Positions 19,192 through 46,061 are shown, counted from the first letter of the stretch. The stretch: 64,000 bases of DNA from Pyrinomonadaceae bacterium (GCA_035645695.1 DASQMC010000079.1:3402-67401); one strand, 5' to 3'. Numbers and translations are program-made. The notes: a model not told the origin generated them from the letters alone.

Positions 19192-22100
19192 TCAGGCCGG
19201 GACATAGACGTAAATTTTCCAGTTCATGCGGCGCGGCAGTTCATGGCGGCGGCAGGCGCGCTCGACGATGCGGTGCAGGGCGTCCTGTCGCCACCCGGCG
19301 CGCAAAAATTCGGCGTGCCACCACGCGCGCGAACGCATCGTGATGTGCGAATAGTCGCGGTCGTTTTTGCGAAACCGTCCTTCCTCGTCTTCGTTGTCGA
19401 ACGACGGGATACAGGCGACGATGGCCTGTCGCGTCCACTTGCGCGCGCGCGTGAGAAACTCGTGCGCCTGCCCCTCGGTCAAACTCTCGCAGAGGGAAAA
19501 GGCGAGCGTCAGATCGAACTCGCGTTCATATTCGACCGATTCTGCGCGGGCGAGCGTGAGGTGTGTTTTAATCGACGCCTCGGCGTGGCCGATAGCCCAC
19601 GGGCTATGGTCGAAGCCCCACGCGTCTTTGCCTCGTTCGCGCAAAGCGCGCACGAGGAAACCTTTGGCGCAGCCCGCGTCGAGGAAAGATTCGGCTTCGG
19701 GAAAACTTTCGCAGAGGTAGCTTGCCGTTCGTTTGAAGAGGTCTGAGAATAGCTGCCACGAATAGCCGCGCTCCCAGTTGCTCTTGCGCCCGTGCTCGAA
19801 GTAGTCCGCGTCGTACCAGTCGCCCTCAATCGGCACGCCGGGGGCGACGAGTCCCTGCCCTTTGCTATCGTCAGCCGTCCAGACACCGCGCGCCGCTCCG
19901 GTGCGGCCGAGCATCTCTTCGATACGCGCGCGCGCCATCTCGCCCACGCGCTCCAGCGAATAATCCTCGCGCATCTTCCGCGCGGCGCGTGCGGCCTTCG
20001 CGCGCGCCGCCTCGCGCTCATGGTAGACGCCGCGCATCAACTCCGAAGCGTGCTTGAGATCGGGTTCAGCCCAGCGCATCCGCGGATGGTAGTAACGATA
20101 AGACTGCCGCACAGGACAGAGCGTGTGGCGCACGAGTTTGTGCGCATCTTCGTCGAGGTATTCGAGCGGGCCGGAGTAGTTCGTGGCGACGACCGGCGTG
20201 CCGCGTCCGGCCGCCTCGAACAGGGGGTAACACCAGCCCTCGCCCCTGTGCAGGGAGACGTAGCAATCGCCGCGCGCGTGCAGGGCTTCGATACGCGCCT
20301 CCGGCCACGCCTCGCCGTGAATAAGAACGCGCGCGTTCGACCCCGTCCGCCGACGTAATTCTTCCAACGCCCCCGCGGCGACGTGGGACGCCTCCGCATT
20401 CACTTTCAAGACGAGCACGGCGTCAGGCTCCTCCGGGAAAGCGCGCAGGAAACTCTCGATCAACCCTTGCGGACTTTTGCGCTCCTGCCAGTGGAAGATG
20501 CTGTAAAAGACGAAATCACGCGCATCGATGCCGGGAAAATCGTAGGTGTCGTCCGCCGCCGTTTGAGGAGGCACGAGCGCGTGCGGGAGTTTGAAGATCG
20601 CTTTGTCGAGCGACTTGCCGAAGACCGAGACGTTGTAATCGCAGGGCAGCCAGATTTCGCGCACGCGCCCGAGCGCGCCGCGCCATTCGGTGGGCATCGC
20701 GTCGGTTTCCCAGACGGTCATGCCGATTGCGTTTTCGACCCCGGCGGCATGGCGCGCCCATTGCGGCGGGATGCCGTGGAAGAGATGCACGTCGCCCTTC
20801 ACGCCTCGGCCGACGCGCGACTCGACGAGTGCGTCGCGCACCTGTCGCGGGCGTCCGGCCGCCATGTCGATCACGGAGAGTTCTATGCCCGCGCGGTGCA
20901 TCGCGTGGATGTAGCCGCGCGCGGCCTGCCCGTAGCCCGACGCGTCGAACACGTAGCCGTAATAGACGAGACTGAGATCGCCCGCGCTCGTTGCCCGGCG
21001 CGACGCACCGACGCGCTCCGGCGGACGATGGGCGGCAAACGGCGCGGGCGTATCTCGTGCGTGGTCGTCTACGGAAACCGCAAGTTGTGAAGCGTGGTCG
21101 TCCACGGCGGCCACGAGTTGCAAAGTCGCGCGCGGCGCGGCGTCGGGCGCGAGGGCGTTTTGTTTGACCTGTTCCATCACCTCTTCCGCCGAGAGGGTCT
21201 TCAGGCACGCGAGATGTTGTTCGCAGTCGCGTCGCCCCCACGGTTGTTTCCTGCACGCCGCCTCGCACGCGAGTTTTTTCGTCACGGCGAACATCTTCCT
21301 CGAAGGGATCATTTCCCGTTCGGGACTCGTGATGCCGAACACGCCGAACGTCGGCGTGCCGACGGCGACGCCTAGGTGCATCAACCCCGAATCGTTCGCC
21401 ACGAGCGCGGCGCATTGCCGGATGAGGGCGGCCGTGTCGGGCAGGTCGAGCGCGTCTGTGAAGTTGCGCGCGTGCGCGGGCCAGGCGAAGGCTTTGCGAA
21501 AGTAGGTCGCGGCGTTGTCGAGGTCGGACTCCGTCCCGATGATGGCGACCTCCGGCCAGAGACGCGCCAACTCGTCGAAGCCGTGCCATTTCTTCCACGG
21601 CCAATCCGGTTTGCAGCCGGGATGCAGCGCAAGCGTACGGGGCGGCAGGTCGAACTTTCTGCCCGAGGCAACGGCGAAAGGCTCGGGCAATTCGTCCTTC
21701 CAGCCCAACTCGCGCGCCATCCGCCCGACGCAGGCGATGTCGCCCGCCTTCAACCATTCCGCCTGATTAAAAGCGAGCACGCGCTTCGCACGCACCCAGC
21801 GGCGCAATGGCGCGCTCCACTGCGTGAACGTCGCGACCTCGTAGGATTCATTCGCCAGAGCGGCGACGGGCAGGCCGCCCCGGTTGCCGCGAAAATTTTG
21901 ATAATGGATGAGGCGTCGAATGCCTTGCGCGTTCTCCCACAACTTCACGCACTCCGGGTAGTCGGGCGCGACGAGCAGATCGACCTGATAGCCGAGACGC
22001 GCGAGCGCGCTCGCAAGCGGCGTCACGCGCAGGATGTCACCGATGCCATAGGCCGCCGAAACGAGAGCCGCGGGAGCGTCAGCGCTAAGCGCGCGCGGTT

Positions 22101-29197: not shown

Positions 29198-31387
29198 CTA
29201 CTCGAAATGAAACGCGACGATGCGCCCCGCCGCCGGAATCCAACCGGGGTCGCGATCAAGTCCGGCCACGCGCACCTCAAAGGGCAACTCCGCCAGTCGC
29301 ATCAGGATGTCAACGTGCGTCGCCGTCACAAACACGCGCGCATTGCGCTCACACAGGAGACGCGCCGCGCGCCGCACGTCTCCCGTGCCGAGCGCGAGAC
29401 GCAGACGCGCGCGCGCGTAAAGATGCACGCGTTCGACCCAGAGCGCGAGCGGCGTGCGGCCGCGAATTTTGAGCGGGCGCGGGGCGCGCGTGGGCTTCCC
29501 CGCGAACGCGTGTGCGTAAACTTCCGACTCGCTCTCTAGTTGCGCTTCCAATTCCTCTTCACCGTCGAGCGGCACGTCAATCAAGAGGAACTTCTCAGGG
29601 TGTATGACCTGCAAGCGGCCTTGCCCCCGCGCGTCGCGCGCGACAGCCCAACGCCAGTTGCCCTTTGCGGGAATATTTCGCAGCCACCCGGCGTCCATGC
29701 GCCACGCGCCGGGCGGGCTGAAATTATCGCCGGGCGGCTCTCCCGGAGCGCGCCCGGAGAGTTGTGCCAGCAGAGGCCAGACGGGATCTTCCTCGACGCA
29801 CGCCCCGGCCATTCGCCGCCCGAGGAGGGCGACGAAATCCCAAACGGGCAGCGCGATGCACTGCGCGGCGGGCGCGGTGAAGTCGCCGTAGAGTTCGAGA
29901 AAGAGAGCGAGATTGACGAGATGAAACAGCCCGCCGAAACGCGTCTCGATCCGCGCTTCGAGCAAGGGCGAAACGGTTGTGTGCGTCGCCTCCGCCTCCG
30001 GGATGAAAGGGAGCGGCGCACCCGTCGCTTGTTCCTCAACCCGCGAGTCCGGCAACTCGAACAGCGGCGCGCTCGCGCCTCGTTCGGCGGCTTCACCTCG
30101 CGGCGCGACGCTTTCGACGACATCGGAAGTCACGGCGAGCGCGACCGTGTCTCTCGCCTCGAACTGTGAAGTCTCGGACTGCCGGGGGGGCTCTCCGTCC
30201 TGCGGCGAAAGTTTCGACGTGGGTGCGAAAGCGTTCGCGTCTTGAAACCCGGGAGTGCCACGCCGCGCGCCGCGAATTTCAGACGCGGGTTGTTGCAGTT
30301 TGTCTGAAACAACATGCACGGGAGACGCCGCGCGCACGCCCTCCGGTGTGTGAACCGCCCCGCGCGGGGAGGCCGCGCCCGGCTTTGACGCGGAAAGGGT
30401 CGGGAGCACGCGCGCGTCGCGCGGCTTTTTCGCATTCGAGCTTGGCGGCGCGGCGACCGCGTTCGTTTCACGGCCGGGTGAGGCCGCGTTCATCCACGCT
30501 TGTATGCGGAGCGCGAAACCGCTCCCGCGCACGACGACTGGCGCGCGGTGCAAGGCGAGTCCGACGCCGAGCAAGCATTGCTGCGACAATTCCAACTCGT
30601 GCGACGACGCCTCCGGCGCGAACTCCCTCCACGGCGACGCGCCTCCTCCTGCGCCCGTTTCCGCCGGAGGCGGTTGAAATTCCCCCCCCGCCGTGTCGCC
30701 GGGAAATGTTTCAGGTTGCGACGCTTTAGGCCGCATTCCGGCCGCGCCCGAACGCCCGGCATGTTCCGGCGCGGCGAAGACGACGGCCTGTAATTCGCCG
30801 AGCGCGAAACGGCGCACGAGGCTATCGAGTATGGCGCGCGCCCCGCCGGGCGCGAGCGCGCGCGCGAAGGCCACGGCTCGCTGCCGTCGCGCGAGATGTT
30901 CGAGCGCACCCGGCACGTATTCGGGCGTCTCGCGCCAGAGTTTGACGACCGCCGGGGCGTCGATGGTCTCTTTGAAAAGACTGCGCCACCACCAGCGCGC
31001 GGCGGCGCGCTGCTCGCACCAATCGCACGCGAGCGCGGCCAGCAACTCGGCGCGATCCTCGAAGACGACGCAGGGCGCATCGGCCGCGACCGCATCGCGC
31101 GCCGGACGCGGGGCGCGACGCGCGAGTTGTTCGATAGAAGCGCGCACGGACTGTTGCCATTCCGGCGGCAGGAACGAATTTGCGCCCGAGAGCGAGACGG
31201 TGCGCGGGCGCGGATCGTCGAGGCGGCGGATGCAGACGATGGCCGACGGGGGGAGCCCCGCGGGTTGCACTTCCGCCGCGCGGAAGAGAGTGGCGAGCCG
31301 CAACTGCGCCGCCAGCGGATCGAGGCCGGAGCACCGGACGCGCAGCCGCGACACGTAAGTCTGTTCACCCGTTTGCAGGTTGATCAT
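29198..31387 (-). CDS. Putative CIS tape measure protein (Afp14 position)
   Basis: The gene sits directly upstream of the AAA+ ATPase. The N-terminus (YVSRLRVRCSGLDPLAAQLRLATLFRAAEV...AIVCIRRLD) and the hydrophobic segment GGLFHLVNLALFLELYGDF resemble my memory of eCIS tape measure proteins. I chose the ATG at 31387 over the TTG at 31453. Confidence 0.5.
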   Translation of the reverse strand: MINLQTGEQTYVSRLRVRCSGLDPLAAQLRLATLFRAAEVQPAGLPPSAIVCIRRLDDPRPRTVSLSGANSFLPPEWQQSVRASIEQLARRAPRPARDAVAADAPCVVFEDRAELLAALACDWCEQRAAARWWWRSLFKETIDAPAVVKLWRETPEYVPGALEHLARRQRAVAFARALAPGGARAILDSLVRRFALGELQAVVFAAPEHAGRSGAAGMRPKASQPETFPGDTAGGEFQPPPAETGAGGGASPWREFAPEASSHELELSQQCLLGVGLALHRAPVVVRGSGFALRIQAWMNAASPGRETNAVAAPPSSNAKKPRDARVLPTLSASKPGAASPRGAVHTPEGVRAASPVHVVSDKLQQPASEIRGARRGTPGFQDANAFAPTSKLSPQDGEPPRQSETSQFEARDTVALAVTSDVVESVAPRGEAAERGASAPLFELPDSRVEEQATGAPLPFIPEAEATHTTVSPLLEARIETRFGGLFHLVNLALFLELYGDFTAPAAQCIALPVWDFVALLGRRMAGACVEEDPVWPLLAQLSGRAPGEPPGDNFSPPGAWRMDAGWLRNIPAKGNWRWAVARDARGQGRLQVIHPEKFLLIDVPLDGEEELEAQLESESEVYAHAFAGKPTRAPRPLKIRGRTPLALWVERVHLYARARLRLALGTGDVRRAARLLCERNARVFVTATHVDILMRLAELPFEVRVAGLDRDPGWIPAAGRIVAFHFE

Positions 31388-31512
31388 CTCAAAGAAACCG
31401 GGTCGGGTTCGCGGGAAGCAAGCGGCGAGCGAACGGGACGACTTCGTGGTCAACCCCGCGCCTGCGCGCCTCTTGCCTCACGCGAACCCGGCTCCATAAG
31501 GCCGCGCCCGTT

Positions 31513-33927
31513 TTAGAATCTGAAGCGCACTCCGCCCTGTAGGGTGGAGTACTTCACATTCGTGCCGGGCGTGAAGACGTTGTGGAAATTGTACGAGCCT
31601 TCGACGGCGAAGGTCGGAGTGACGTTGAATTGCAAGCCGCCGCCGAGGTTCAGGCCGCCGCGCGTGTCGCCGCCCCCGAGGCCGCCGAAATCGAAGTGAT
31701 ACGCGCCGCCGCCGCCGTTGAGAAACGGCCTGACTGAACCGCTCCCGCCGAAGACTTTGACGTTGCCGGAGAACTGGTGCACGTTGAGGTCTTCGACGGA
31801 GACGACGCCGAAGTCTTCGCCGCGAAAGCGATTGAAGTTGTACAACGCTTCGAGCGAGACCCGATTGTTCAGACGGTATTCGAGGTCGATACCGAAGTTC
31901 GGCCCCGTGCTGAACACGTCGCCGAATTCGGCATGCGGAATGCTCGCGCCCGCGTGCAAACTCAGCCCCCAGCGTTTCTCGTCGGCGTCGGCGGGAATCG
32001 AGCCGCCACCACCGCCGCCGCCCGTGCCGCCGCCCGTGCCGCCGCCCGTGCCGCCGCCGCCCGTGCCGCCGCCCGTGCCGCCGCCCGTGCCGCCGCCGCC
32101 CGTGCCGCCGCCGGGTTCAATCGCCTCAATCGTCGTCTTGATTTTGACGGCTCCGTTGTGCGGCACGCCGACGCGATAGAAGTTGGGCGCGAGTTGCTCG
32201 GCTCCGGTGAGGCTGTGTCTCCAACCTTCGAGAGCGCCCTTGTGCGTGACGTAATAGCCAAACGAATTTTGCGGCTCAAGGATGGTGAAGGCCGTTCCGT
32301 TCCTCGTTATGCGCCTGCCAGTATCGTGGTAGGCGTGCACGCGATAGGTCGGCATGAACGGGTCGAGTTCGCCGGTAATGTCGCCGCCCGGCCTGTTGCC
32401 CGGCATGGTCGATGCGCTGCCCCCTATAGCGGTCGCACTGCCTCTCGCCGGGTCGCGATCATCCTGACCGACTTTCGACGGCATGTTCGCCGTCTCGACG
32501 TAGAGATAGACATCGCGTCGCGGCGTCCCGCCCAGCGCGGGCAGCCCGACGACGCTGATCTCGGCGTCGCGCTCAAACGTCGAAGCGTTGACGAAGTCCA
32601 TGTTGCGCACGGCGGTGTCGTTGAGAAACTTCAGGTCGGTGGTCGATGTCAGTTGCACCAGCATGCACTGGTGCATGGTCTTATCGCCGTCGAGAAACGG
32701 CGTTTTCTCCGCCACGTTGAAGGTGAGCGGGAAGGAGATGGTTCCCTCCGAGGCGTTGTTGATAACGGCCGCGCTCGGCACTTTATCGCCGTTGCGGAGC
32801 TTGACCCACAGCCCCGCCGGGTCGCCCGAATCGTTGAGCCCGATTTGCGACCCCCAGTTGGCGATATAGTAAGTGGCCTGAATTTGTCCGGCGGGAATCG
32901 GCTGGCCGGTGTTGTTGAAAGGTTTCGCGACGAACGTGTTCGGGCTTTGCAGGTTCATCAGGCTCGTCGGGTTATTGGTCGTCCCGATCTTTCCGCCTTT
33001 CAGCGAGACGCCGTCTGTGGGGCATTGCGGGTCGGGCGAGTCGGCGGTTCCGTTCGTCAGCCGCATCTCTTCCCACGTGCTGGTTTCAGGGAATTGATCT
33101 TCGCCCTCGCCGTTCACGCCGATGTCGGCCGCCGATTGCGGGAATTTATAGACGATGTAGGCGTCGCCCATCGCAGGCATGACGCGCAGTTCATACCACA
33201 TGCGAAACGTGGACGGGATGTTCAGCCCGTTTGCGAGTCCTGAATTGCTGAACGGGATCATCATTTCCACCGCCCACGAATTGCTCGGATTATTTTGCAC
33301 CCAGATTCTCGTCCTGCCGGTGAGCCATGCGGGCGTGTTCGCGCCCACGTAAGCGTCGCCGGGGCTGGCCGCCGGTTTGGTCGAGATGGTCGCGCCGTAT
33401 TGCGAGGTCGCCAGTCCGGGGGCGGCGTTATTGAGTTGGATGGAGATGAGTACATCCTCCTGACCGCCGCCGGGGCTGAAGCCGACGAACAGGCGATTGT
33501 TCGTGTTAACGGCAAGACTCGGCGCGACCTTCACGTTCCAGGACAGGTAGAGGCCGGTGGCCGCGCCCGCGTTCGAGTGCAGGACGCGGAACGCGACGTG
33601 CTCGGCCGTGCCCGTACCGCGCGTGTAATTGGCGGCTCCGCGCCAGCGCGGGTCGTCGAGCCGGTTGCTGAATCTATCCGGCGCGTTTGGCGACGCTCCC
33701 ATGTTCCACCAGTTCGGCGGCGCGCTTTGTCCGGGGACGCCGATGGCGCGCGGCACGCAGGTCGTGGCGGCCTCGATGGTCTGGCTGAATAAGCCTGCGC
33801 AGAAGACCGCTACGAAGACTGCGTAACCGATGCGGCCGATGCGGCCGAAGTGCGGAAGGCGACGGCGGCGCGCGTGGGCAAGAGATGTTGAAGGCGCGGT
33901 TTGCGTGTGGCGGGTGCTGAAATTCAT
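31513..33927 (-). CDS. Secreted protein with about 600-aa N-terminal passenger, poly-Gly/Thr linker and C-terminal outer-membrane beta-barrel
   Basis: - The N-terminus is a signal-like hydrophobic segment (GYAVFVAVFCAGLFSQTIEA).
- The linker reads GGGTGGGGTGGGTGGGTGGGGTGGGTGGGTGGGGGGG.
- The last roughly 165 aa show alternating-hydrophobic strands (WGLSLHAG, FGIDLEYRL, SLEALYNFNRF, GNVKVF, GGGAYHFDF, GLNLGGGLQFNV, FAVEGSYNFHNVF).
- The protein ends in GGVRFRF, the aromatic C-terminal OMP signature. Confidence 0.75.
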   Translation of the reverse strand: MNFSTRHTQTAPSTSLAHARRRRLPHFGRIGRIGYAVFVAVFCAGLFSQTIEAATTCVPRAIGVPGQSAPPNWWNMGASPNAPDRFSNRLDDPRWRGAANYTRGTGTAEHVAFRVLHSNAGAATGLYLSWNVKVAPSLAVNTNNRLFVGFSPGGGQEDVLISIQLNNAAPGLATSQYGATISTKPAASPGDAYVGANTPAWLTGRTRIWVQNNPSNSWAVEMMIPFSNSGLANGLNIPSTFRMWYELRVMPAMGDAYIVYKFPQSAADIGVNGEGEDQFPETSTWEEMRLTNGTADSPDPQCPTDGVSLKGGKIGTTNNPTSLMNLQSPNTFVAKPFNNTGQPIPAGQIQATYYIANWGSQIGLNDSGDPAGLWVKLRNGDKVPSAAVINNASEGTISFPLTFNVAEKTPFLDGDKTMHQCMLVQLTSTTDLKFLNDTAVRNMDFVNASTFERDAEISVVGLPALGGTPRRDVYLYVETANMPSKVGQDDRDPARGSATAIGGSASTMPGNRPGGDITGELDPFMPTYRVHAYHDTGRRITRNGTAFTILEPQNSFGYYVTHKGALEGWRHSLTGAEQLAPNFYRVGVPHNGAVKIKTTIEAIEPGGGTGGGGTGGGTGGGTGGGGTGGGTGGGTGGGGGGGSIPADADEKRWGLSLHAGASIPHAEFGDVFSTGPNFGIDLEYRLNNRVSLEALYNFNRFRGEDFGVVSVEDLNVHQFSGNVKVFGGSGSVRPFLNGGGGAYHFDFGGLGGGDTRGGLNLGGGLQFNVTPTFAVEGSYNFHNVFTPGTNVKYSTLQGGVRFRF
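32002..32113. repeat. Tandem GC-rich repeat encoding the poly-Gly/Thr linker
   Basis: There are repeating cccgtgccgccg units, including a near-perfect duplication of about 33 bp, inside the CDS 31513..33927. Confidence 0.85.
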
Positions 33928-34007
33928 TTCGTATCTCCTTATCAGGCTGTGAGGTCAACGGCAATGATCCTCTTGGAATGCGGACGGTCGGGTGCGGCCA
34001 ACGTCCG

Positions 34008-35255
34008 CTAGGCTTGCGCCGGCAGTTTCAGTAATAAGCTCAGCGTCCGTTTGAGCGAGGAGCCCTGTCGTTGAAGTTGGATTTCGACTTTGGCCTGCGC
34101 CGTGGCGGCTTCGAGCGCCTTGATGCTGATTCGCAAAGGCTTCGTCGCCTCGCCCGAATTATCGAAATCCTCCTTCTTGATCTCGAACGGGTTCGGAACA
34201 GTTTGTGTGCTGACGGTGGCCGTCCAACCCGAGCCGGACGTGATCTTGGCGGTCACGTCGTATATGCCGACGGCCTGAATGACGGCCGTGGGGTTGACGC
34301 GCGCGACCTGATTAGTCTGCGCCGTAGATTTCTGCAAGGTGATGGTCGGCGGCGCGGTGGAGTTGTTCACACTCCCGGCCGAGACGGGGATGAATTCGAT
34401 AGCCGGGGTTTGCCCCCCCGTGTTGAGGAGCAGGTTGGTTGCGGGGTCGGGCGGATCGATGGCCTGCCCGACGGTAAATTCCGCGGCGCCGCCCGTCGTG
34501 CCGCCGACTTTGCCCGACGAGGCCGAGACTTTCAACCCGAATTTCTGCCCGTTCGTGTTCGGCGGGACGGCCTTGATTCTGACGAAGAAGGTTTTCGTCT
34601 CGTTAACTTCGAGGTGAATCTGGTTGCCCTGCGCCTTGGCCTTCTGGCTGTTAAGCAACTCGATCTGGCTCTGCCACGGCGCGGGATCATTGACGCCCGT
34701 GATCTCCGTCGTGATCGTGAAGTCGGCGGCAAGCGAGGCGCGCGACTTCAGGCTGTATTCAAAAGTCACGGCGCTGCCGGGGGTGATCGTGAGCGGGTCG
34801 GCGGTTTTGAACAGCACATCCACGCCGCCTTCGAGCGAGAGTTCGACGGGCAGGATCGTCACCACCTTCTGGGCGGACTCGCTGACGTTGCTGACGCGCA
34901 CCGTAACCTGCTTGCCCTGCGGCGGGAGGTTCGGGATGACGGGGATGGTGAAGATCAGGTTCTGGTCGTTTGACCCGGCGAGGTAGGTGTCAACCCGCGT
35001 GTCTTCGTCGAACGTTACCTCGGTGGCTCCGATCACGAATCCGAAGTTCTGCCCGGTGATGTGCATTTGTTGATTGACGCGCGGCGGCGGAGAATGCGGC
35101 TTTATGTCCGTGATGAAGACCTTGCCGCCCACCGGCCCGATTGATTCAAGCCCCGCCACTTTCGCCTGCAACGCGTTGATCTCGTCAACGATGCGATTGA
35201 TGAATTGCGCCGTGATCAGATCGCCCGGCTTTACCTTGTCGATTATCTGCGCCAT
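34008..35255 (-). CDS. Fibre/receptor-binding-like protein: N-terminal coiled coil plus IPT/TIG-type Ig-like domains (Afp13 position)
   Basis: MAQIIDKVKPGDLITAQFINRIVDEINALQAKVAGLE is a phage-fibre-like N-terminus. The IPT-like segment is ITDIKPHSPPPRVNQQMHITGQNFGFVIGATEVTFD...VTVRVSN. The remainder is beta-rich. Confidence 0.6.
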   Translation of the reverse strand: MAQIIDKVKPGDLITAQFINRIVDEINALQAKVAGLESIGPVGGKVFITDIKPHSPPPRVNQQMHITGQNFGFVIGATEVTFDEDTRVDTYLAGSNDQNLIFTIPVIPNLPPQGKQVTVRVSNVSESAQKVVTILPVELSLEGGVDVLFKTADPLTITPGSAVTFEYSLKSRASLAADFTITTEITGVNDPAPWQSQIELLNSQKAKAQGNQIHLEVNETKTFFVRIKAVPPNTNGQKFGLKVSASSGKVGGTTGGAAEFTVGQAIDPPDPATNLLLNTGGQTPAIEFIPVSAGSVNNSTAPPTITLQKSTAQTNQVARVNPTAVIQAVGIYDVTAKITSGSGWTATVSTQTVPNPFEIKKEDFDNSGEATKPLRISIKALEAATAQAKVEIQLQRQGSSLKRTLSLLLKLPAQA

Positions 35256-35307: not shown

Positions 35308-36636
35308 TCAGGAATAATTGCTGTAGTTCCAACGAGCCAGGTTGTAATGCGCGTCTCCGTGATAGGGGACGTGGCCGCTCGTGAAGATCATGTAAGGTTG
35401 CGGCGGATCGGCCGCCGCCTGCGCCCCCATGTTTTCTCTCACGCGATAGACGCGGAGCACTTCCTTGCCCCCGAGGACGTGCGGCGCATAGTCGAGCGCG
35501 GTGCGCAACAGTTCGACCGCCCGCGCGCCTTCCGTGTAGACGGGCGGGGGATAAATGATGCCCTCGAAAAATTTCAGGTAGTTGAAGCCGACGGGCGAAC
35601 CGGCGCTGGCGAGCGGCACGATGCCCGCGGGCGGCAGGTAGCGAAAGTAGGATTTCGCGGCCACGCCTTCCGGGTGCGGATTGTCGCGGCGAATCGCATC
35701 CAGATGTTCCTGAAACTGCCGAAACATCGCTTCGGCGTTTGCGACGCGCCCGTCGTCGAGCGACGGCGACCAGCGATCCGCATCCGGTCGCCCCGAAGGG
35801 CGACGCCTCACAGACCACATGTCGGTAAAACCGATGCCGTTCGCAGTCCAGTAGACGAGCGCGAGCGGCACATCGCAAGGCGTCAACATTCCCTGTTGTT
35901 TGAGCGGCGTGGTGAGCTTTGCCCCGGCGCGCGCCGCGTCTTCGACGAACGGGTCGGCGACGAAACTCTTTCGCCGCGCCTCGCCCGAACAGAGTTGCGC
36001 CAGCATGTTTCTGAGAAGCGAGAGGTTGGCCGCGCCGCCCGCGTTCATCAGGGTTTTGAGTTCGGCGCGCGCGTCGGCCGGGATGGCGGGGTTGGTATCC
36101 ACGTCCGCGTTGACGAGTTTGAACTGCACTCCCTCGACGGCGTAGCGGCTGCCGCAGCCCGGACTCGTCAGACCCGTGTTTCCCAAACCGCTCACGGGCG
36201 CGCGCTCGTCGTAGCCGGAGGCGGGCGTGATGACGAGCAGGTAGACGCCCGCACCGGCGACGACGGCCGTCTGCGTCGGCGGCGCGCACGTGGCGAATAG
36301 TCCCGCCTCCGCGTTGGCCGCTTCGAGTTCGCGCACGAGCGCGACTTCCGTATCGAGCGGCAGCGAAAGCGTCTGGCCGTTCTCGTTCAAGGCCATCCCC
36401 GCGCTCACGCGCACGACCGCGTTCTTAAGGCCGCCCGCGCCCGACTGCGGCGCGCTCTCCACCTCAAGGCCGTTGACGACCCCTGCGCCGATGGCTCTTC
36501 CGAGTTGCGCATCGCGCGCGCGGTTGGCCTGCTGCTCCTGCCGCAAATCTTCGGCCGAGAGCAAGCGCCCGTTGAAGAAGTTGGTGTTGCGAATGCCGCC
36601 TTCGAGGAAAGGCTCCAGCAGTTCGATTCTGCCCAT
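35308..36636 (-). CDS. CIS-associated hypothetical protein, paralog of 36660..38117 (baseplate-distal / fibre-associated candidate)
   Basis: It shares an N-terminal pattern with the neighbouring gene. Here that pattern is LSAEDLRQEQQANRARDAQLGRAIGAGVVNGLEV...VSAGMALNENGQTLSL. In the neighbour it is LGVDDLTQEFAYHSGRDQLMMRDSIGYGTVNGLRV...VSPGTAVTPRGQLVHV. Confidence 0.55.
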   Translation of the reverse strand: MGRIELLEPFLEGGIRNTNFFNGRLLSAEDLRQEQQANRARDAQLGRAIGAGVVNGLEVESAPQSGAGGLKNAVVRVSAGMALNENGQTLSLPLDTEVALVRELEAANAEAGLFATCAPPTQTAVVAGAGVYLLVITPASGYDERAPVSGLGNTGLTSPGCGSRYAVEGVQFKLVNADVDTNPAIPADARAELKTLMNAGGAANLSLLRNMLAQLCSGEARRKSFVADPFVEDAARAGAKLTTPLKQQGMLTPCDVPLALVYWTANGIGFTDMWSVRRRPSGRPDADRWSPSLDDGRVANAEAMFRQFQEHLDAIRRDNPHPEGVAAKSYFRYLPPAGIVPLASAGSPVGFNYLKFFEGIIYPPPVYTEGARAVELLRTALDYAPHVLGGKEVLRVYRVRENMGAQAAADPPQPYMIFTSGHVPYHGDAHYNLARWNYSNYS

Positions 36637-36659
36637 GTCGGATTAACCTCTCTCTTGAA

Positions 36660-38117
36660 CTAGATGACGGGCGGCGCGAATGCCGTCACGCGTTGCGGGC
36701 TGTCCTGCCCGACGAAGTTGATGTGACGCGCGGCGGCGTGCTGCGCAAGCGACGCCTCATCCCCGCCTTCCGGCTGTACTTTCATGCCGTCGAGGTTGAA
36801 GGCGAACCGGATTAAGCGTGCGTCGGCGGCGAGTTCCACCTCGAACACGTTTCTCATAGTCGGGACAGGCGCGATGGAGACGACGTTAAGCGGGTCGAGA
36901 AAATAGTTCGGCGCGTCGGTTTCCTGCACCGCCATGAGATCGTCGTGTGTGAAAGAGATGAGCGCGATCTGGTTTTCCGGCGTGTCGAGATGAAACCAGA
37001 AACGGAACAGGGGCGCGCCGCCCGTGTCGCGCACGATGGTGACGAGCGGGAGCGTCTGCACGCGCGGCCGCGCTACCTCGCCGAAACTGCCGCACGTCAA
37101 CCACTCCTGCAACATGCGATTGTGAATCAGGTAAGGACGGCGATCTTCCAGCACGCGCACGGGCGTCGTCGTGTCGAGCAGCACGTCCGCCGTCAGCGGC
37201 ACGCGCAGGTCTGCGAGCAGCACACAGTTGTCGTCAGTGACAGTACCGGAGTCCGAACCGTCCGGCGCGCAAGAGGCCGACTGAGTGTTGAACCGCCGTG
37301 GACGCCAGCGCGGGCGAAATTCCGTGACCCACAGGCGAAACGCGATGCGCCGGAACTCGCAGGCCTGCGCGACGTTGACGCGCATCGGATCGGCGGGCGA
37401 AGCGTCGAGCATGAAATCGGGCGGCAACTCGTCGGGCGGCAGCACGGCCGGGTGCGCTGCGTCGAGCACGGCCGCGATGAAGTCGGCCTCGCTCGTGAGG
37501 TTGTTTTCGTCCTCCGTCACGACGAGGTGCTCGTTGAGCCATTTGATGAAATCGCGCAGGGCGTCTTCTTCGCGCTGGTCGGGCGTGGGCGGCTTGGCCG
37601 CGCGCCGCACGCGCAGTTCGAGTTTGAAGTCGTCGCGCAGGCGCGAATAGGCCATCGTGTCTTCTTCGCTGCGGCACGGTTCGCCGGGGACGGGCACTTT
37701 ATCCGTCGGGCATGAGCGATAGCACAAGACGACCGAGAGCATGACGGGCGACGCGGGCGGCGTGCCCACTTCATCGCCGACGGCCTTTTTGTTCTTCGCC
37801 ACGGCCAGCCACTTTCCGAGGTGCGCGCACTGCGCCGTGTTGACGTGGACTAATTGCCCGCGCGGCGTGACGGCCGTGCCGGGCGAGACGTTCACTTCGA
37901 TCTCGCCGTTGGCGTTCGGTGCGACCGTCACACGCAGGCCGTTCACCGTGCCGTAGCCGATTGAATCGCGCATCATGAGTTGATCGCGCCCGGAGTGGTA
38001 AGCGAACTCCTGCGTCAGATCGTCCACGCCGAGCACCATGCCGTAGGTGTAATTGACGTGCTTGGTCGGATCGCCCGAAGCGCCCGGAGTTGCCATGCGC
38101 GATGTGAAGTCTTCCAT
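36660..38117 (-). CDS. CIS-associated hypothetical protein, paralog of 35308..36636
   Basis: It has an ATG start and lies immediately after the gpI-like baseplate gene. See the paralog evidence above. Confidence 0.55.
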   Translation of the reverse strand: MEDFTSRMATPGASGDPTKHVNYTYGMVLGVDDLTQEFAYHSGRDQLMMRDSIGYGTVNGLRVTVAPNANGEIEVNVSPGTAVTPRGQLVHVNTAQCAHLGKWLAVAKNKKAVGDEVGTPPASPVMLSVVLCYRSCPTDKVPVPGEPCRSEEDTMAYSRLRDDFKLELRVRRAAKPPTPDQREEDALRDFIKWLNEHLVVTEDENNLTSEADFIAAVLDAAHPAVLPPDELPPDFMLDASPADPMRVNVAQACEFRRIAFRLWVTEFRPRWRPRRFNTQSASCAPDGSDSGTVTDDNCVLLADLRVPLTADVLLDTTTPVRVLEDRRPYLIHNRMLQEWLTCGSFGEVARPRVQTLPLVTIVRDTGGAPLFRFWFHLDTPENQIALISFTHDDLMAVQETDAPNYFLDPLNVVSIAPVPTMRNVFEVELAADARLIRFAFNLDGMKVQPEGGDEASLAQHAAARHINFVGQDSPQRVTAFAPPVI

Positions 38118-43880: not shown

Positions 43881-46061
43881 TCACCCCTTCGCCTTCTTCG
43901 CGCTGAAGCCCGGCAGCGGGAAACAGATCAGGAAATACGGAAGCCAGCGGAAAATGATGTCGAGCAGGTTCACGATGATCATCAGCAGGAGCAGCGCGCA
44001 GATCGTGATGATCGGGATCGAGAGCGAGCAGATCATGCCGAACTCCAAAGTCCCGCCCGGCTCTTTGCAGGGGCCTTTGTCGGGCGCGGATAAATCCTTG
44101 TGCAGCGGCCACGGCAGCACGGAGCGCACGAGGTCGCCGAGATTCATGCCCTTGGCGCGGTCGATCTGCCCGCACAGCATGTCGGAGATCATGAAGGCAG
44201 TGTTTTTGTCGAACTTCCGCAAGCCCGCCGGCGACGTGTCGAGAGGCATCGCGATGCGAATTGGGCGCGCGGGCGCGTCGGGGTCGAAGAAACTCGCCAA
44301 CTGGAAGGCGCGCGTCGGCGCGCTGACCACTGGCGGATCGACCGGGCCGCATTCGGGTCGCTCGTAGACGCAGCGCACGACGAACCAGCCCTCTCGCGTG
44401 TCCAGAACTTTCTGCGCCGCGAGCGGGAGAGGCGCGGCGTATGAACTCTCTCCCTCCGGGAGCGCGGCGGCGACGAGGCTCGCGAGGTGCGACACGCGAC
44501 CGGCGGCTTTCAGGAAACGATCCGTGTCGTCCGTTGCGCCCGGAGCTTTAGGCGCGAGCGGCCCTTCGAATTCCGTGTCAGCGAGCGGGAAGAGGAAGGT
44601 CGGCCACTTCGCATCGGGGTTGTCGCGCAGGTAAGCGGTCGAGACGGATTCGAGATCGTCTTCCAGCTTCGCGGCCTTCGCTGCGTCGAGCGGCGTGCCG
44701 CCGCGAATGGCCTTGAGCGCGTCGGCCAGAGTTTTGGAGACATCCTTCGCCTGATAGCCGACGCCTTTCACCAGCGACTTCAATTCGTCCGCGGCGGCAG
44801 GCGTCTCGTTCGTCAGTTTCGTGTAAGTCGCTTGATCGAAGGCGGTGGCCGCGAGCGCGCCGACGAGCGCGGCTTCCGGCGCGGAGAGTGCGGGCGTCGC
44901 CGCGCCCGTGACGGTCTTCCACACGCCGGGCAGGTATTGTTCGAGGTATTTGGCGAAGTCGAGAAGGATGTACCACGAGACTGTTTGAATCTGCTCGCGC
45001 AGAGACTTCAAAGTCCCCTTCTTCGCCGTCGGGTCGAAGGCTTCATCGTCGGTCTTAGGCAACGGCGGCGGATTGAACATTTTGTAAGTCGCGCCCGCGC
45101 GCTCGATGAGGCGCGTCCACGGTTCTGTCACGTCCAACCAGAGCGGCATCATGCGCGGGTCAACCGGCCGGTCATTGTCTGTCGCGGAGGCGTCTCCCGT
45201 CGCGGCGTTCGCCCCGGCCGTCGCGCCCGAAAGCGCGCCCGCGCCCATGTAGTTCTCGCGTTTGCCGACGGGGATGAAGCCCGTCAGGACGCGCCGCCTG
45301 TGGCCGTCGTCCTGCGTGTAGTTGACGGGAAACAGCGGCAATTGTTCCTCGCCCGCGACGAGCACGTCGGCGCGCGCCGCCGGTGCGATGCCGCCTCCTG
45401 ATGCCGTCGATACTTTCCGCCAACCGGTGCCCGCCGCCGTCGTCGCAAGCGCGTATTCTTCCCAACTTCCCTCGTCGAAGTCGGGCAACTTCTGCGAGCG
45501 ATCAATTTGCCCGTTCGCATCGAGAAAGTTCGGCGGCAGCAGCCGCCTGACGACGAACGACGCACGCTCGTCGCGCGCGGGATTCACGGCGCGATCCGGC
45601 AACCCCGCGCGACCGCACACGAGACAGGCCGTGATTAGGTAGAAGCGTTGATGCGCCGGTTGATAGAGCTTGAGGGGCGCCGAGGCTGAGGCGTCGGAGA
45701 TTGCGACGCTCGCGCTGCCGTTCAACGTCGTGAGCGCGCCGCCCGACGTGGCGAGCGTCTTCGCGTTCTTTTTCTCCGATGCAAGGCGCAGGCGATTCAA
45801 GGGACGCAGGAACGCGGGCTGCCTGACGACGGGCGCGACGGGCGGCGAAGGACCGCGCCACGTCTCCGGCTGCGCGACGAGTTGAGAGAGCCGCGCCGGG
45901 TCGTTCTCCAACAGCGCGAGGTAATCGTCCATGAACTTGTCGGAGGCAAAGCGCAGGATGGCCGGGCGGCGCAAGGTGCGGCGGCGCACGGCGATTTCCG
46001 CCGCGCCTGCCGCTTCAGGCCACAGGGGCGCGGGCGCTGTCCATTGCACTACGTCTCGCAT
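43881..46061 (-). CDS. Unassigned 726-aa CIS protein with C-terminal hydrophobic membrane anchor, in the slot normally held by PAAR
   Basis: It has an ATG start with a GAGGA SD, 7 nt after the spike gene stop. The C-terminus is FGMICSLSIPIITICALLLLMIIVNLLDIIFRWLPYFLICFPLPGFSAKKAKG. The internal motif is LKLYQPAHQRFYLITACLVCGRAGLPD. No family name is known to me. Confidence 0.7.
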   Translation of the reverse strand: MRDVVQWTAPAPLWPEAAGAAEIAVRRRTLRRPAILRFASDKFMDDYLALLENDPARLSQLVAQPETWRGPSPPVAPVVRQPAFLRPLNRLRLASEKKNAKTLATSGGALTTLNGSASVAISDASASAPLKLYQPAHQRFYLITACLVCGRAGLPDRAVNPARDERASFVVRRLLPPNFLDANGQIDRSQKLPDFDEGSWEEYALATTAAGTGWRKVSTASGGGIAPAARADVLVAGEEQLPLFPVNYTQDDGHRRRVLTGFIPVGKRENYMGAGALSGATAGANAATGDASATDNDRPVDPRMMPLWLDVTEPWTRLIERAGATYKMFNPPPLPKTDDEAFDPTAKKGTLKSLREQIQTVSWYILLDFAKYLEQYLPGVWKTVTGAATPALSAPEAALVGALAATAFDQATYTKLTNETPAAADELKSLVKGVGYQAKDVSKTLADALKAIRGGTPLDAAKAAKLEDDLESVSTAYLRDNPDAKWPTFLFPLADTEFEGPLAPKAPGATDDTDRFLKAAGRVSHLASLVAAALPEGESSYAAPLPLAAQKVLDTREGWFVVRCVYERPECGPVDPPVVSAPTRAFQLASFFDPDAPARPIRIAMPLDTSPAGLRKFDKNTAFMISDMLCGQIDRAKGMNLGDLVRSVLPWPLHKDLSAPDKGPCKEPGGTLEFGMICSLSIPIITICALLLLMIIVNLLDIIFRWLPYFLICFPLPGFSAKKAKG

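What the first reader, a model, noticed from the sequence alone, without database searches (positions are those of the whole stretch)
31513..33927. Outer-membrane beta-barrel-anchored protein embedded inside the CIS operon
An 804-aa protein sits between the fibre genes and the tape measure. It has a signal-like N-terminus and a roughly 600-aa beta-rich passenger. A 37-residue Gly/Thr linker connects this to a roughly 165-aa C-terminal barrel that ends in the OMP signature RFRF. As far as I know, outer-membrane proteins are not part of described Afp/PVC core sets. Together with the membrane-anchored 726-aa protein, it raises the hypothesis of an envelope-tethered or surface-displayed CIS. Alternatively it could be a self-protection, docking or release factor.
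Basis: partly seen in the sequence, partly recalled or inferred. Interest (0 to 1): 0.75.

Follow-up and report, generated by a model that had tools for sequence, protein, structure and literature searches.

The report
Outer-membrane-anchored partner protein of an injection system
The gene is real and encodes a protein hung from the inner face of the outer membrane; it belongs to a large, undescribed family that sits at a fixed position in one lineage of phage-tail-like injection systems, always carries some membrane anchor, and evolves in step with the neighbouring fibre-like gene.

Summary
ORF 31513-33927 (-) encodes 804 aa: a Sec-type signal peptide, a 552-aa all-beta domain, a 37-residue Gly/Thr linker and an 8-stranded OmpA/OmpX-type barrel ending QGGVRFRF. 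It is not a passenger insertion. The N-domain defines an unannotated family of about 1,500 clusters at 50% identity. That family occupies the same slot (TIG protein, this gene, ~700-aa gene, AAA ATPase) in 28 fetched CIS loci from at least five phyla. The anchor is interchangeable: signal peptide plus barrel, signal peptide plus C-terminal TM helix, or no signal peptide plus a basic amphipathic or hydrophobic tail. An 8-stranded barrel places the N-domain in the periplasm, so surface display is not supported. The long linker is a strain-specific repeat expansion. The N-domain has a CBM9/DOMON-like sandwich and no catalytic fold. It co-diverges with the adjacent TIG fibre-like protein (partial Mantel r 0.62, p 0.0003), which never has a signal peptide. 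Best reading: a membrane-tethered cognate partner of the fibre module, analogous to CisA or Anabaena Cis13 but unrelated to them. What it actually does (docking or retention versus self-protection) is unresolved.

The parts
31513..33927 (-). Whole gene, 804 aa plus stop codon (31513-31515)
   Evidence: ORF list. Orthologs at 78-82% identity sit in the same slot.
33935..33940 (-). Shine-Dalgarno sequence AAGGAG, 7 nt upstream of the ATG
   Evidence: Read directly from the sequence.
33769..33927 (-). Predicted Sec signal peptide, aa 1-53 (n-region with RRRR, h-region YAVFVAVFCAGLF, c-region TIEA|A)
   Evidence: Hydropathy 1.78-2.7, helix 30-46 in the AF2 model, conserved in orthologs. This is a heuristic call, not a dedicated predictor.
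32113..33768 (-). Conserved N-domain, aa 54-605: three beta-sandwich regions starting at the conserved C57-V-P-x-A-x-G-V-P...PPNWW...DDPRW motif
   Evidence: AF2 pLDDT 88.8, pTM 0.88. Family of 1,481 clusters at 50% identity. Invariant residues listed.
33058..33645 (-). Approximate CBM9/DOMON-like beta-sandwich subdomain (about aa 95-290; boundaries estimated from the strand pattern)
   Evidence: Foldseek local hits: 4jpq_B putative carbohydrate-binding protein (prob 1.00, TMt 0.55) and the DOMON domain of dopamine beta-hydroxylase 4zel (prob 0.90). No Pfam hit.
32002..32112 (-). 37-residue Gly/Thr linker (aa 606-642), encoded by a GGC-GGC-GGC-ACG type tandem repeat
   Evidence: AF2 pLDDT is below 50 over aa 608-649. 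Orthologs have only 6-17 residues here.
31516..32001 (-). 8-stranded OmpA/OmpX/NspA-type outer-membrane beta-barrel, aa 643-804 (strands at 653-803)
   Evidence: PF13505 at 52.3 bits, above the 28.7 cutoff. AF2 strands. Foldseek hits NspA, OmpA, Ail, OmpX. PDB profile hits Opa60, NspA, OmpX.
31516..31539 (-). C-terminal beta-signal QGGVRFRF (aa 797-804)
   Evidence: Read from the sequence. Barrel-bearing homologs end in the same ...G.R.RF pattern.
34008..35255 (-). Upstream neighbour: 415-aa IPT/TIG-domain fibre-like protein with no signal peptide. It is the protein whose divergence tracks the N-domain.
   Evidence: PF01833. Partial Mantel r 0.62, p 0.0003. No signal peptide in any locus.
35308..38117 (-). 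Two CIS13-like fibre proteins (442 aa at 35308-36636, 485 aa at 36660-38117)
   Evidence: NCBIfam NF053767 CIS13_fam gives partial hits below its cutoff. Both are syntenic in all CIS loci.
29198..31453 (-). Downstream neighbour: 751-aa conserved unknown protein in the positional Cis14 (tape-measure) slot. That identity is unverified.
   Evidence: Syntenic in all CIS loci. No Pfam, NCBIfam or PDB match.
27044..29170 (-). AAA ATPase (Afp15/Cis15-like)
   Evidence: PF00004 E 1.9e-24.
43881..46061 (-). 726-aa tail-anchored inner-membrane protein between VgrG and gp25. It has no signal peptide and a C-terminal TM at aa 682-700.
   Evidence: Hydropathy 2.86. Conserved next to gp25 across the lineage, in loci of every anchor class whose flank reaches that far.

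Best explanation
The gene encodes the outer-membrane-anchored form of a conserved, previously undescribed accessory protein of one CIS lineage. That lineage is the one whose sheath and baseplate are closest to the cell-associated Streptomyces and haloarchaeal systems.

Shown:
- The protein is exported by a Sec-type signal peptide.
- Its C-terminal 8-stranded OmpA/OmpX-like barrel would be inserted by BAM.
- Across the family the N-domain is constant and the tether is swapped repeatedly between barrel, C-terminal TM helix and basic amphipathic or hydrophobic tail. Membrane tethering is the selected property, not a particular membrane.
- The N-domain diverges in step with the adjacent TIG-domain fibre-like protein.

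Inferred: it is the membrane-bound cognate partner of the fibre (specificity) module and not a component of the ejected particle. In signal-peptide-less variants it would hold the cytoplasmic particle at the inner membrane through its fibres, much as Anabaena Cis13-TM or Streptomyces CisA do. In this Pyrinomonadaceae genome the fibres are cytoplasmic and the partner is periplasmic, so they can only meet once the inner membrane is breached. My committed guess is that it captures or retains particles on the producer's envelope at the lysis or ghost-cell stage.
For: Architecture and topology.

Host is a diderm Pyrinomonadaceae.

Fixed slot: 28 fetched CIS loci of Acidobacteriota, Chloroflexota, Actinomycetota, Pseudomonadota, Myxococcota and others. 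Nine barrel-bearing copies lie in that slot (the window plus eight of those loci).

Operon continuity.

Family size and lack of annotation.

Anchor classes and their strict coupling (barrel always with a signal peptide).

Amphipathic tails: median hydrophobic moment 0.56 against 0.26 for controls.

About 24 anchor changes and about 8 signal-peptide changes on the N-domain tree.

The same bacterial family carries both exported and non-exported forms in CIS loci.

No catalytic fold, with a CBM9/DOMON-like local match.

Co-divergence with TIG: partial Mantel r 0.62, p 0.0003; 0.76 and 0.82 within the exported and cytoplasmic classes; only 0.17 for the equally adjacent 751-aa gene.

TIG never has a signal peptide.

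Nearest solved relatives are the cell-associated CIS-Sc (8bky, 9gtp) and the haloarchaeal system (9ezm).

Precedents for lineage-specific membrane adaptors: PMC12237407, PMC8894136, PMC11566945.
Against: - No physical interaction was tested. Co-divergence could equally come from co-transfer of an adjacent cis13b-TIG-N-domain cassette.
- In the exported classes, including the target, the protein and the particle are in different compartments. The docking role therefore needs a lysis or ghost-cell step that is not demonstrated for this organism.
- About 15 orphan copies lie outside CIS loci with their own conserved neighbours, so the domain can work without a CIS.
- The signal peptide and topology rest on heuristics and general OMP rules, not on experiment.
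- The distances in the mirror-tree test come from best tblastn HSPs of highly diverged proteins.
Confidence: 0.5

Rival explanations
1. Self-protection or anti-adsorption factor, analogous to phage T5 Llp. In this reading a periplasm-facing outer-membrane protein, encoded next to the receptor-binding gene, masks or alters the producer's own receptor. Released particles would then not be wasted on sister cells or lysed debris.
For: The protein faces the periplasm and is OM-anchored. It lies immediately downstream of a fibre-like gene and co-diverges with it. Orphan copies exist without a CIS, as is known for orphan immunity genes. The Llp precedent is periplasmic, adjacent to the RBP gene and prevents adsorption to lysed fragments (PMC9586334).
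Against: About a quarter of the family has no signal peptide and sits on the cytoplasmic face, including in diderms (Pyrinomonadaceae, Methylococcaceae). That position is hard to reconcile with receptor masking. The domain is about 550 aa against about 60 aa for Llp, and no OMP partner is known. No needle-level immunity has been described for eCIS.
Confidence: 0.15
2. One reading: an envelope-spanning or surface-displayed system. The OM protein together with the tail-anchored 726-aa protein would form a TssJ/TssL-like trans-envelope dock, making this a cell-bound, outward-firing machine. Alternatively the passenger would be displayed on the surface.
For: Two conserved membrane proteins are in the operon, one in the IM and one in the OM. 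The nearest characterised relatives are membrane-associated. TssJ is likewise an OM-tethered periplasmic beta-sandwich (my own knowledge).
Against: Surface display is contradicted by the 8-strand barrel topology and the 2-13-residue connectors. The 726-aa protein exposes about 26 residues at most beyond its TM, and the class-2 relatives have only an RRKP-type cytoplasmic tail. No element that bridges the periplasm to the cytoplasm is visible. The anchor moves freely between compartments, unlike a fixed trans-envelope complex.
Confidence: 0.1
3. A membrane-proximal glycan-binding protein that shares a ligand with the fibres and does not bind them. The candidate ligand is a lipid-linked or envelope glycan, possibly made by the locus-encoded glycosyltransferase/methyltransferase genes. 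Such a glycan is present on the cytoplasmic face of the IM, the periplasmic face of the IM and the OM.
For: There is a CBM9/DOMON-like module with many invariant Trp and Asn residues. A 1231-aa GT2-GT9-GT4-methyltransferase gene is conserved downstream in several loci. All three anchor positions are surfaces where lipid-linked glycans occur. A shared ligand would also give co-divergence with TIG.
Against: There is no Pfam-level CBM or DOMON match. The fold match is local, with TMt only 0.55. No ligand evidence was obtained.
Confidence: 0.1
4. A structural fibre or receptor-binding component of the ejected particle itself.
For: It sits in the slot among the fibre genes and has a fibre-like evolutionary rate. 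Variants without a signal peptide could be incorporated into the particle.
Against: In this genome the protein has a signal peptide and a BAM-dependent barrel, so it leaves the cytoplasm where particles assemble. It has no match to CIS13 or any chain of a solved CIS.
Confidence: 0.05
5. A lysis or release factor that weakens the envelope to free the particles.
For: The protein is located in the envelope. The cationic amphipathic tails of the signal-peptide-less relatives resemble membrane-active peptides.
Against: No hydrolase or lytic fold was found. The conserved N-terminal Cys is replaced by Ser, Thr or Gln in one clade. Orphan copies in ordinary envelope operons would be harmful if they were lytic.
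Confidence: 0.05
6. An unrelated outer-membrane protein gene that was inserted into the operon as a passenger.
For: Orphan members of the family exist outside CIS loci.
Against: The gene occupies the same slot in 28 fetched CIS loci of at least five phyla. Its divergence tracks the locus. It has no regulatory signals of its own.
Confidence: 0.03

Closest known systems
CisA (SCO4242), membrane adaptor of the Streptomyces coelicolor cytoplasmic CIS (PMC12237407)
   Same: It is encoded downstream of the baseplate genes in the slot where fibres usually lie. It is a membrane protein with a folded, binding-type extracytoplasmic domain. It is not part of the purified particle and is conserved only within one CIS lineage. 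The window's sheath and baseplate are closest to this system.
   Different: There is no sequence or fold relation. CisA is 468 aa with a disordered cytoplasmic N-terminus, one TM and an SBP-like C-terminal domain. The target has no cytoplasmic part, has an OM barrel and three beta-sandwiches, and coexists with fibre genes that Streptomyces lacks.
Anabaena thylakoid-anchored CIS: Cis13 with a C-terminal TM helix, the Cis12 amphipathic extension and the Cis19 crown (PMC8894136)
   Same: A fibre-module protein carrying a C-terminal membrane anchor tethers a particle of the eCIS lineage to a membrane, and the particle acts after ghost-cell formation. The signal-peptide-less relatives of the target, with C-terminal TM or amphipathic tails, look functionally similar.
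   Different: It is an unrelated protein. In the window the anchor is a beta-barrel in the outer membrane, and the domain lies on the far side of the inner membrane from the particle.
OmpA / OmpX / NspA / Opa family of 8-stranded outer-membrane barrels (Pfam PF13505)
   Same: The C-terminal 160 aa pass the Pfam cutoff, fold as 8 strands and end in the aromatic beta-signal.
   Different: Here the barrel is a C-terminal anchor for a large N-terminal periplasmic domain. That is the inverse of OmpA, whose barrel is N-terminal and whose periplasmic domain is C-terminal. The external loops are short (6-10 residues), unlike those of the adhesin-type Opa and Ail proteins.
Phage T5 Llp superinfection-exclusion lipoprotein (PMC9586334)
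   Same: It is a periplasm-facing outer-membrane-tethered protein, encoded adjacent to and downstream of the receptor-binding protein gene and matched to it.
   Different: Llp is a lipoprotein of about 60 aa that binds FhuA. The target is a barrel-anchored domain of about 550 aa, and many of its relatives are cytoplasmic. Any protective function is untested.
T6SS membrane complex, TssJ (OM-tethered beta-sandwich) and TssL (tail-anchored IM protein)
   Same: One OM-tethered periplasmic beta-sandwich protein and one tail-anchored IM protein are encoded in a contractile-system locus (the comparison itself is from my own knowledge).
   Different: There is no TssM-like bridging protein and no homology. 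The anchor type and compartment vary freely among orthologous loci.

Membership tests
OMP_b-brl / OmpA-OmpX-type 8-stranded outer-membrane barrel (C-terminal domain) | Profile match above the curated threshold | tested here: met
   PF13505 at 52.3 bits against a cutoff of 28.7, aa 642-804.
OMP_b-brl / OmpA-OmpX-type 8-stranded outer-membrane barrel (C-terminal domain) | Eight antiparallel strands with alternating long loops and short turns, and a fold match to solved barrels | tested here: met
   AF2 predicts 8 strands at pLDDT above 90. Connections are 10/4/10/5/7/4/6 residues. NspA TMt 0.78, OmpA 0.74-0.75.
OMP_b-brl / OmpA-OmpX-type 8-stranded outer-membrane barrel (C-terminal domain) | N-terminal signal peptide and a C-terminal aromatic beta-signal, in a diderm host | tested here: met
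   Heuristic signal peptide. C-terminus QGGVRFRF. Host is Pyrinomonadaceae. No dedicated predictor or experiment was available.
Type Va autotransporter (which would give surface display of the passenger) | A 12-stranded barrel with a linker threaded through its pore, and a matching Autotransporter profile | tested here: not met
   Only 8 strands, no autotransporter Pfam hit, and connectors of 2-13 residues in most homologs.
Afp/PVC/CIS core components (Afp1-16, Cis1-16, Cis19) | Sequence match to a curated CIS family or to a chain of a solved CIS structure | tested here: not met
   Pfam and NCBIfam match the barrel only, and CIS13_fam hits the two upstream genes but not this one. The PDB profile search returns only OMP barrels. 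Foldseek with the N-domain finds no CIS chain in the top 50.
CisA-type CIS membrane adaptor | Disordered cytoplasmic N-terminus, a single TM and an SBP-like extracytoplasmic C-terminal domain | tested here: not met
   The architecture is different. Only the locus position and the role class are similar.
CisA-type CIS membrane adaptor | Required for contraction or firing, and absent from purified particles | not testable with these tools
   This needs genetics and particle mass spectrometry.
CBM9 / DOMON-like ligand-binding beta-sandwich (first subdomain) | Fold match plus a profile match | tested here: inconclusive
   Foldseek local match to 4jpq_B (prob 1.00, TMt 0.55) and to 4zel (prob 0.90). 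No Pfam hit at E<=0.01.
The new N-domain family itself (CIS-slot membrane-tethered protein) | Conserved N-domain with the invariant motifs (C/S-I-P-x-A-x-G-V-P, DPRW, NWGS, HQC), plus a membrane anchor, plus the slot between the TIG protein and the ~700-aa gene and AAA ATPase | tested here: met

The most novel reading that the evidence does not exclude
In diderm hosts this outer-membrane-anchored periplasmic protein, together with the conserved tail-anchored 726-aa inner-membrane protein, would form an independently evolved trans-envelope docking and exit site that recognises the system's own fibres. That would turn an 'extracellular' CIS into a cell-bound, outward-firing machine, a functional analogue of the T6SS TssJLM complex built from unrelated parts. 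The cytoplasmic-face and IM-anchored variants would be the same device adapted to other envelope architectures.
Probability: 0.1. Interest if true: 0.9.

Novelty: new variant of a known kind. Interest (0 to 1): 0.66.

Why it matters
How CIS of the eCIS lineage are positioned, triggered, released or restrained at the cell envelope is an open question. Only a few lineage-specific adaptors are known: CisA, Anabaena Cis13/Cis19 and the haloarchaeal Hbor_38620.

This work defines a much larger and phylogenetically broader accessory family. It has about 1,500 clusters at 50% identity, spans at least five phyla, and has no Pfam or NCBIfam model. Three properties make it experimentally tractable:
- It keeps a fixed operon slot.
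- It co-diverges with a fibre-like protein.

It is, to my knowledge and in the searched literature, the first beta-barrel-anchored protein tied to a CIS operon. If the fibre-partner reading holds, it would supply a handle for predicting the mode of action of uncharacterised CIS loci from sequence (released, membrane-docked or ghost-cell-displayed). It would also supply a natural fibre/receptor pair for engineering.

Tried and rejected
- **Passenger insertion:** rejected by synteny.
- **N-masking as the cause of the 'orphan' loci:** checked and excluded.
- **Catalytic N-terminal Cys (Ntn-type) or Cys-His enzyme:** rejected. One CIS-embedded clade has Ser, Thr or Gln at that position, and no hydrolase fold was found.
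- **Tat export:** the RR motif is not conserved among orthologs, and a BAM substrate needs Sec (plus reasoning).
- **Long flexible tether reaching the peptidoglycan:** rejected as a family property. The median connector is 5 residues.
- **Whole-chain Foldseek:** returned only barrel hits, so the N-domain had to be modelled and searched alone.
- **PDB sequence searches with the 751-aa, 726-aa, Cis13-like and TIG proteins:** found nothing useful.
- **Annotation of orphan neighbourhoods:** Ser/Thr kinase, TPR/PEGA, a lipoprotein-like ~840-aa protein, and trypsin-like plus RCC1 genes gave no functional handle and no relation to CIS proteins.
- **Cys57/Cys302 covariation as evidence for a disulfide:** only one evolutionary event, and alignment-dependent.
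- **Literature searches for this family:** found no description.
Full report
**1. The observation**

The ORF 31513..33927 on the minus strand encodes 804 aa. It is preceded by AAGGAG 7 nt upstream of the ATG. The long ORFs that overlap it on the other strand, such as 31777..33243 (+), are the usual by-product of high G+C and have no support.

The N-terminus has a basic n-region, the hydrophobic core YAVFVAVFCAGLF and an I-E-A|A site. The closest orthologs conserve it. I had no dedicated signal-peptide predictor, so this is a heuristic call.

Residues 606-642 are exactly 37 Gly/Thr residues. The C-terminal 160 residues pass Pfam's OMP_b-brl cutoff (52.3 bits against 28.7). AlphaFold2 with a 73-sequence alignment gave mean pLDDT 84 and pTM 0.73, with eight strands at 653-803 and a disordered segment at 608-649. 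Foldseek against the PDB returned NspA (TMt 0.78), the OmpA transmembrane domain (0.74-0.75), Ail, OmpX and OprF-N as top hits. A profile search of PDB sequences found Opa60, NspA and OmpX. The last eight residues, QGGVRFRF, fit the polar-x-G-x-x-aromatic-x-aromatic beta-signal.

**2. The locus**

The minus strand carries a complete contractile injection system. In order it encodes:
- a BTAD regulator and Pvc16_N cap;
- two sheaths and two gp19-type tubes;
- CIS_tube+LysM, a gpD-like protein and a VgrG-type spike;
- a 726-aa unknown protein, gp25, Baseplate_J and Tail_P2_I;
- two CIS13-like proteins and a TIG-domain protein;
- the target;
- a 751-aa unknown protein, an AAA ATPase and a 1146-aa protein;
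- glycosyltransferase/methyltransferase genes.

No minus-strand terminator or convincing promoter flanks the target.

The sheath is closest to the Streptomyces cytoplasmic CIS (8bky/9gtp, E 1e-104) and to 9ezm. Entry 9ezm is the membrane-bound haloarchaeal system. Baseplate_J matches 9gtp. The host is a Pyrinomonadaceae bacterium (Acidobacteriota, diderm): a flanking aminotransferase is 80-87% identical to proteins named that way.

It has no Pfam, NCBIfam or PDB match, so only its position supports that label.

**3. The N-domain is a large undescribed family in a fixed CIS slot**

A homolog search returned 369 hits. Many cover 93-100% of the query and carry PF13505. Many others are about 600 aa and cover only the first ~69%. 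An N-domain-only profile found 1,481 clusters at 50% identity with E<=1e-3, and 819 with E<=1e-30. Neither Pfam nor NCBIfam covers the domain.

tblastn with the window's CIS proteins against the fetched loci, together with gene calls for further contigs, shows one conserved order: cis13a, cis13b, TIG, this family, the 751-aa homolog, AAA. That order appears in 28 loci. By their record titles these come from:
- Acidobacteriota;
- Chloroflexota (Aggregatilineales, Ardenticatenaceae, Caldilineaceae);
- Actinomycetota (Thermopolyspora, Rhodococcus aetherivorans, Acidimicrobiales);
- Pseudomonadota (Lysobacter, Verticiella, Methylococcaceae);
- Myxococcota (Anaeromyxobacteraceae);
- a MAG labelled Clostridia.

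Nine barrel-bearing copies lie in that slot: the window plus eight of those loci.

About 15 copies with adequate flanks are orphans, and the loci are not N-masked. The Myxococcota orphans follow a lipoprotein-like ~840-aa gene and lie near a Ser/Thr kinase. Two Gemmatimonadota-type orphans share a trypsin-like / RCC1 / family arrangement.

The 'passenger insertion' refutation therefore fails. The domain can nevertheless also function outside a CIS.

**4. The anchor is interchangeable and the tether is the constant**

Family members fall into three classes:
- signal peptide + N-domain + barrel;
- signal peptide + N-domain + C-terminal TM helix with a basic stop (...LLILLLRKKP);
- no signal peptide, with the protein starting M-x-x-C at the first conserved residue, and a C-terminal 'GC + basic amphipathic helix' or a hydrophobic tail.

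In Thermopolyspora the upstream gene ends 33 nt before the start codon, so there is no room for a signal peptide.

Among 150 representatives from the N-domain-only search, the proportions were roughly 30%, 25% and 25% respectively. The rest were fragments or carried extra domains.

The amphipathic tails have a median helical hydrophobic moment of 0.56. Internal control windows have a median of 0.26 and a 95th percentile of 0.45. 31 of 34 tails carry a net positive charge.

Barrels occur essentially only together with a signal peptide: 68 of 72, where two exceptions are N-terminally truncated entries and two have only a marginal hydrophobic segment. On an N-domain tree, parsimony needs about 24 anchor changes and about 8 signal-peptide changes over 142 leaves. 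The tree is a rough NJ tree, but the interleaving is plain.

Host envelope does not dictate the class. Other Pyrinomonadaceae CIS loci carry the signal-peptide-less form, and so does a Methylococcaceae locus.

**5. Topology of the target**

This step combines the model with established knowledge of OMPs. Even-stranded OmpA/OmpX-type barrels have both termini in the periplasm. Here the inter-strand connections alternate 10/4/10/5/7/4/6 residues, which is the expected loop/turn pattern, and the loops are short. An 8-stranded barrel has no pore through which a linker could be threaded. In 53 barrel-bearing homologs the N-domain joins strand 1 through a median of 5 residues (range 2-48).

The window's 37-residue G/T run is encoded by a perfect 39-nt x 2.6 tandem repeat. 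Orthologs that are 78-82% identical have only 6-17 residues there. It is a strain-specific expansion.

**6. What the N-domain looks like**

The N-domain-only model has pLDDT 88.8 and pTM 0.88. Its Foldseek search found no global relative. The only confident local match is a CBM9-type putative carbohydrate-binding protein (4jpq_B, prob 1.0, TMt 0.55), followed by the DOMON domain of dopamine beta-hydroxylase (prob 0.9). Everything else is generic beta-sandwich matching (arrestins, macroglobulin domains), with no catalytic fold.

Invariant positions are rich in Trp, Asn and Gly. The conserved N-terminal Cys is Ser, Thr or Gln in one CIS-embedded clade, so it is not catalytic. That clade also lacks the Cys302 equivalent. 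This would fit a disulfide or a paired site, but it represents a single evolutionary event.

**7. Relation to the rest of the locus**

Across loci the N-domain diverges at the rate of the peripheral fibre proteins, which is faster than gp25, Baseplate_J and the AAA ATPase. Its similarity follows compartment class more than locus relatedness. The signal-peptide-less Pyrinomonadaceae loci have closer cores to the window than L003 does, but more distant N-domains.

A mirror-tree test on 19 loci plus the window gave these partial Mantel correlations of N-domain distances, controlling for Baseplate_J + AAA distance:

| Protein | r | p |
|---|---|---|
| TIG | 0.62 | 0.0003 |
| cis13b | 0.34 | 0.0003 |
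| Tail_P2_I | 0.25 | 0.0017 |
| 751-aa gene (equally adjacent) | 0.17 | 0.0307 |
| cis13a | 0.02 | 0.40 |

The TIG correlation holds within the exported class (0.76, 10 loci) and within the cytoplasmic class (0.82, 10 loci).

TIG proteins never have a signal peptide. They all start with a conserved ...PGDLITA...L..LE neck.

The N-domain therefore belongs to the same co-diverging specificity module as TIG and cis13b. The cause is either that they interact or share a ligand, or that the three genes move as a cassette. The distances come from best HSPs of very diverged proteins, so the test is indicative and not decisive.

**8. Mechanism**

Shown:
- a periplasm-facing, OM-anchored binding-type domain;
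- membership of a conserved CIS-slot family whose constant feature is a membrane tether;
- co-divergence with a cytoplasmic fibre-like protein.

Inferred: it is the membrane-bound cognate partner of the fibre module and not a particle component.

For the signal-peptide-less variants the simplest reading is a tether that holds the cytoplasmic particle at the inner membrane. This parallels Anabaena Cis13-TM (PMC8894136) and, functionally, CisA (PMC12237407). For the target, the partner and the fibres are separated by the inner membrane. Contact needs a breach of that membrane. I commit, at modest confidence, to capture or retention of particles on the producer's envelope at a lysis or ghost-cell stage. 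That is the one end state all three anchor classes share.

The main rival is an Llp-like anti-adsorption or self-protection role (PMC9586334). It fits the exported forms and the orphans but not the cytoplasmic-face forms. The other candidates are less likely: a trans-envelope TssJ/TssL-like dock formed with the conserved tail-anchored 726-aa protein, a shared-glycan-ligand role linked to the locus GT/MT genes, a structural fibre role, and a lysis role. The reasons are given under the rival explanations.

**9. Comparison and novelty**

The barrel is an ordinary member of the OmpA/OmpX class, and all tested features are met. The protein is not an autotransporter, not a member of any curated CIS family and not a CisA homolog.

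As a kind of thing, a lineage-specific membrane-associated CIS accessory, it has precedents. The family itself, the beta-barrel anchor, the free exchange of anchors across compartments and the coupling to a fibre gene were not found in the searched literature. I rate it a new variant of a known kind, with interest 0.66.

Noticed in passing
window 43881-46061 (-): A 726-aa protein lies between the VgrG-type spike and gp25. It has no signal peptide, a strong C-terminal TM at aa 682-700 and a second hydrophobic stretch, so it looks like a tail-anchored or hairpin inner-membrane protein. It is conserved next to gp25 across the lineage, in loci of every anchor class whose flank reaches that far, including monoderm hosts. 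It has no Pfam, NCBIfam or PDB match.
   Followed up: partly
window 32012-32112: A perfect 39-nt x 2.6 (12/15-nt GGC-GGC-GGC-ACG type) tandem repeat encodes the Gly/Thr linker. Orthologs at 78-82% identity have much shorter Gly runs there, so the length is probably variable through slippage.
   Followed up: yes
window 19192-22887 (-) and 17780-19153 (-): A 1231-aa multidomain GT2 + GT9 + GT4 + methyltransferase protein and a GT2-like protein lie just downstream of the CIS genes. The large one is also found downstream of CIS loci in L003, L028, L034, L044 and L046. This suggests that glycosylation is part of this CIS lineage.
   Followed up: partly
window 29198-31453 (-): A 751-aa protein occupies the positional tape-measure (Cis14) slot. 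It has a Pro/Ala-rich, low-complexity middle, an ambiguous start (TTG at 31453 or a downstream ATG giving MINLQ...), and no match to any tape-measure or other family. It is conserved in every CIS locus of the lineage.
   Followed up: partly
window 23506-26946 (-): A 1146-aa protein follows the AAA ATPase and has two hydrophobic segments (aa 668-686 and 721-739). Its positional counterparts in other loci carry PF13699 eCIS_core, some with toxin domains (AHH, Endonuclea_NS_2). Pfam did not detect eCIS_core in the window copy at E<=0.01.
   Followed up: no
L019, L022, L023, L025-L027, L029, L032, L035, L037 (Myxococcota): Orphan family members, each with a signal peptide and a C-terminal TM with an RRRR tail, always follow a conserved ~840-1060-aa protein with a lipoprotein-type signal (...LGVAIGC|N). 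A Ser/Thr kinase and a TPR/PEGA protein are often nearby. No CIS genes lie within 10 kb.
   Followed up: partly
L004 5188-12280 and L050 4650-10403: A second orphan context is shared by a Gemmatimonadales MAG (L004) and a metagenomic contig without taxonomic label (L050): a trypsin-like peptidase, an RCC1-repeat beta-propeller protein, and then the barrel-bearing family member.
   Followed up: partly
L015, L017, L018, L020, L021, L033, L034, L038, L039: One CIS-embedded, signal-peptide-less clade has lost both the conserved N-terminal Cys (now Ser, Thr or Gln) and the Cys302 equivalent (DPxC becomes ...TSGGV...). This hints that the two cysteines form a pair, either a disulfide or a shared site, in the other members.
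   Followed up: partly
window 49690-52653 (-) and 53312-55357 (-): There are two sheath genes of very different size (681 and 987 aa). The larger one matches Phage_sheath_1 only weakly (E 4e-4) and must carry large extra domains.
   Followed up: no
window 57649-58605 (-), 61563-62225 (+), 62705-63454 (+): A BTAD/Trans_reg_C (SARP-like) regulator lies directly upstream of the CIS operon, and an ECF sigma factor / zf-HC2 anti-sigma pair lies a few kb further on. These are candidate regulators of the system.
   Followed up: no
P0029, P0054, P0021, P0252, P0260, P0268, P0282: Some family members carry further modules: PF07752 (S-layer) or CarboxypepD_reg domains, or N-terminal extensions of 300-800 aa in front of the conserved domain. 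The family is modular beyond the three main anchor classes.
   Followed up: no
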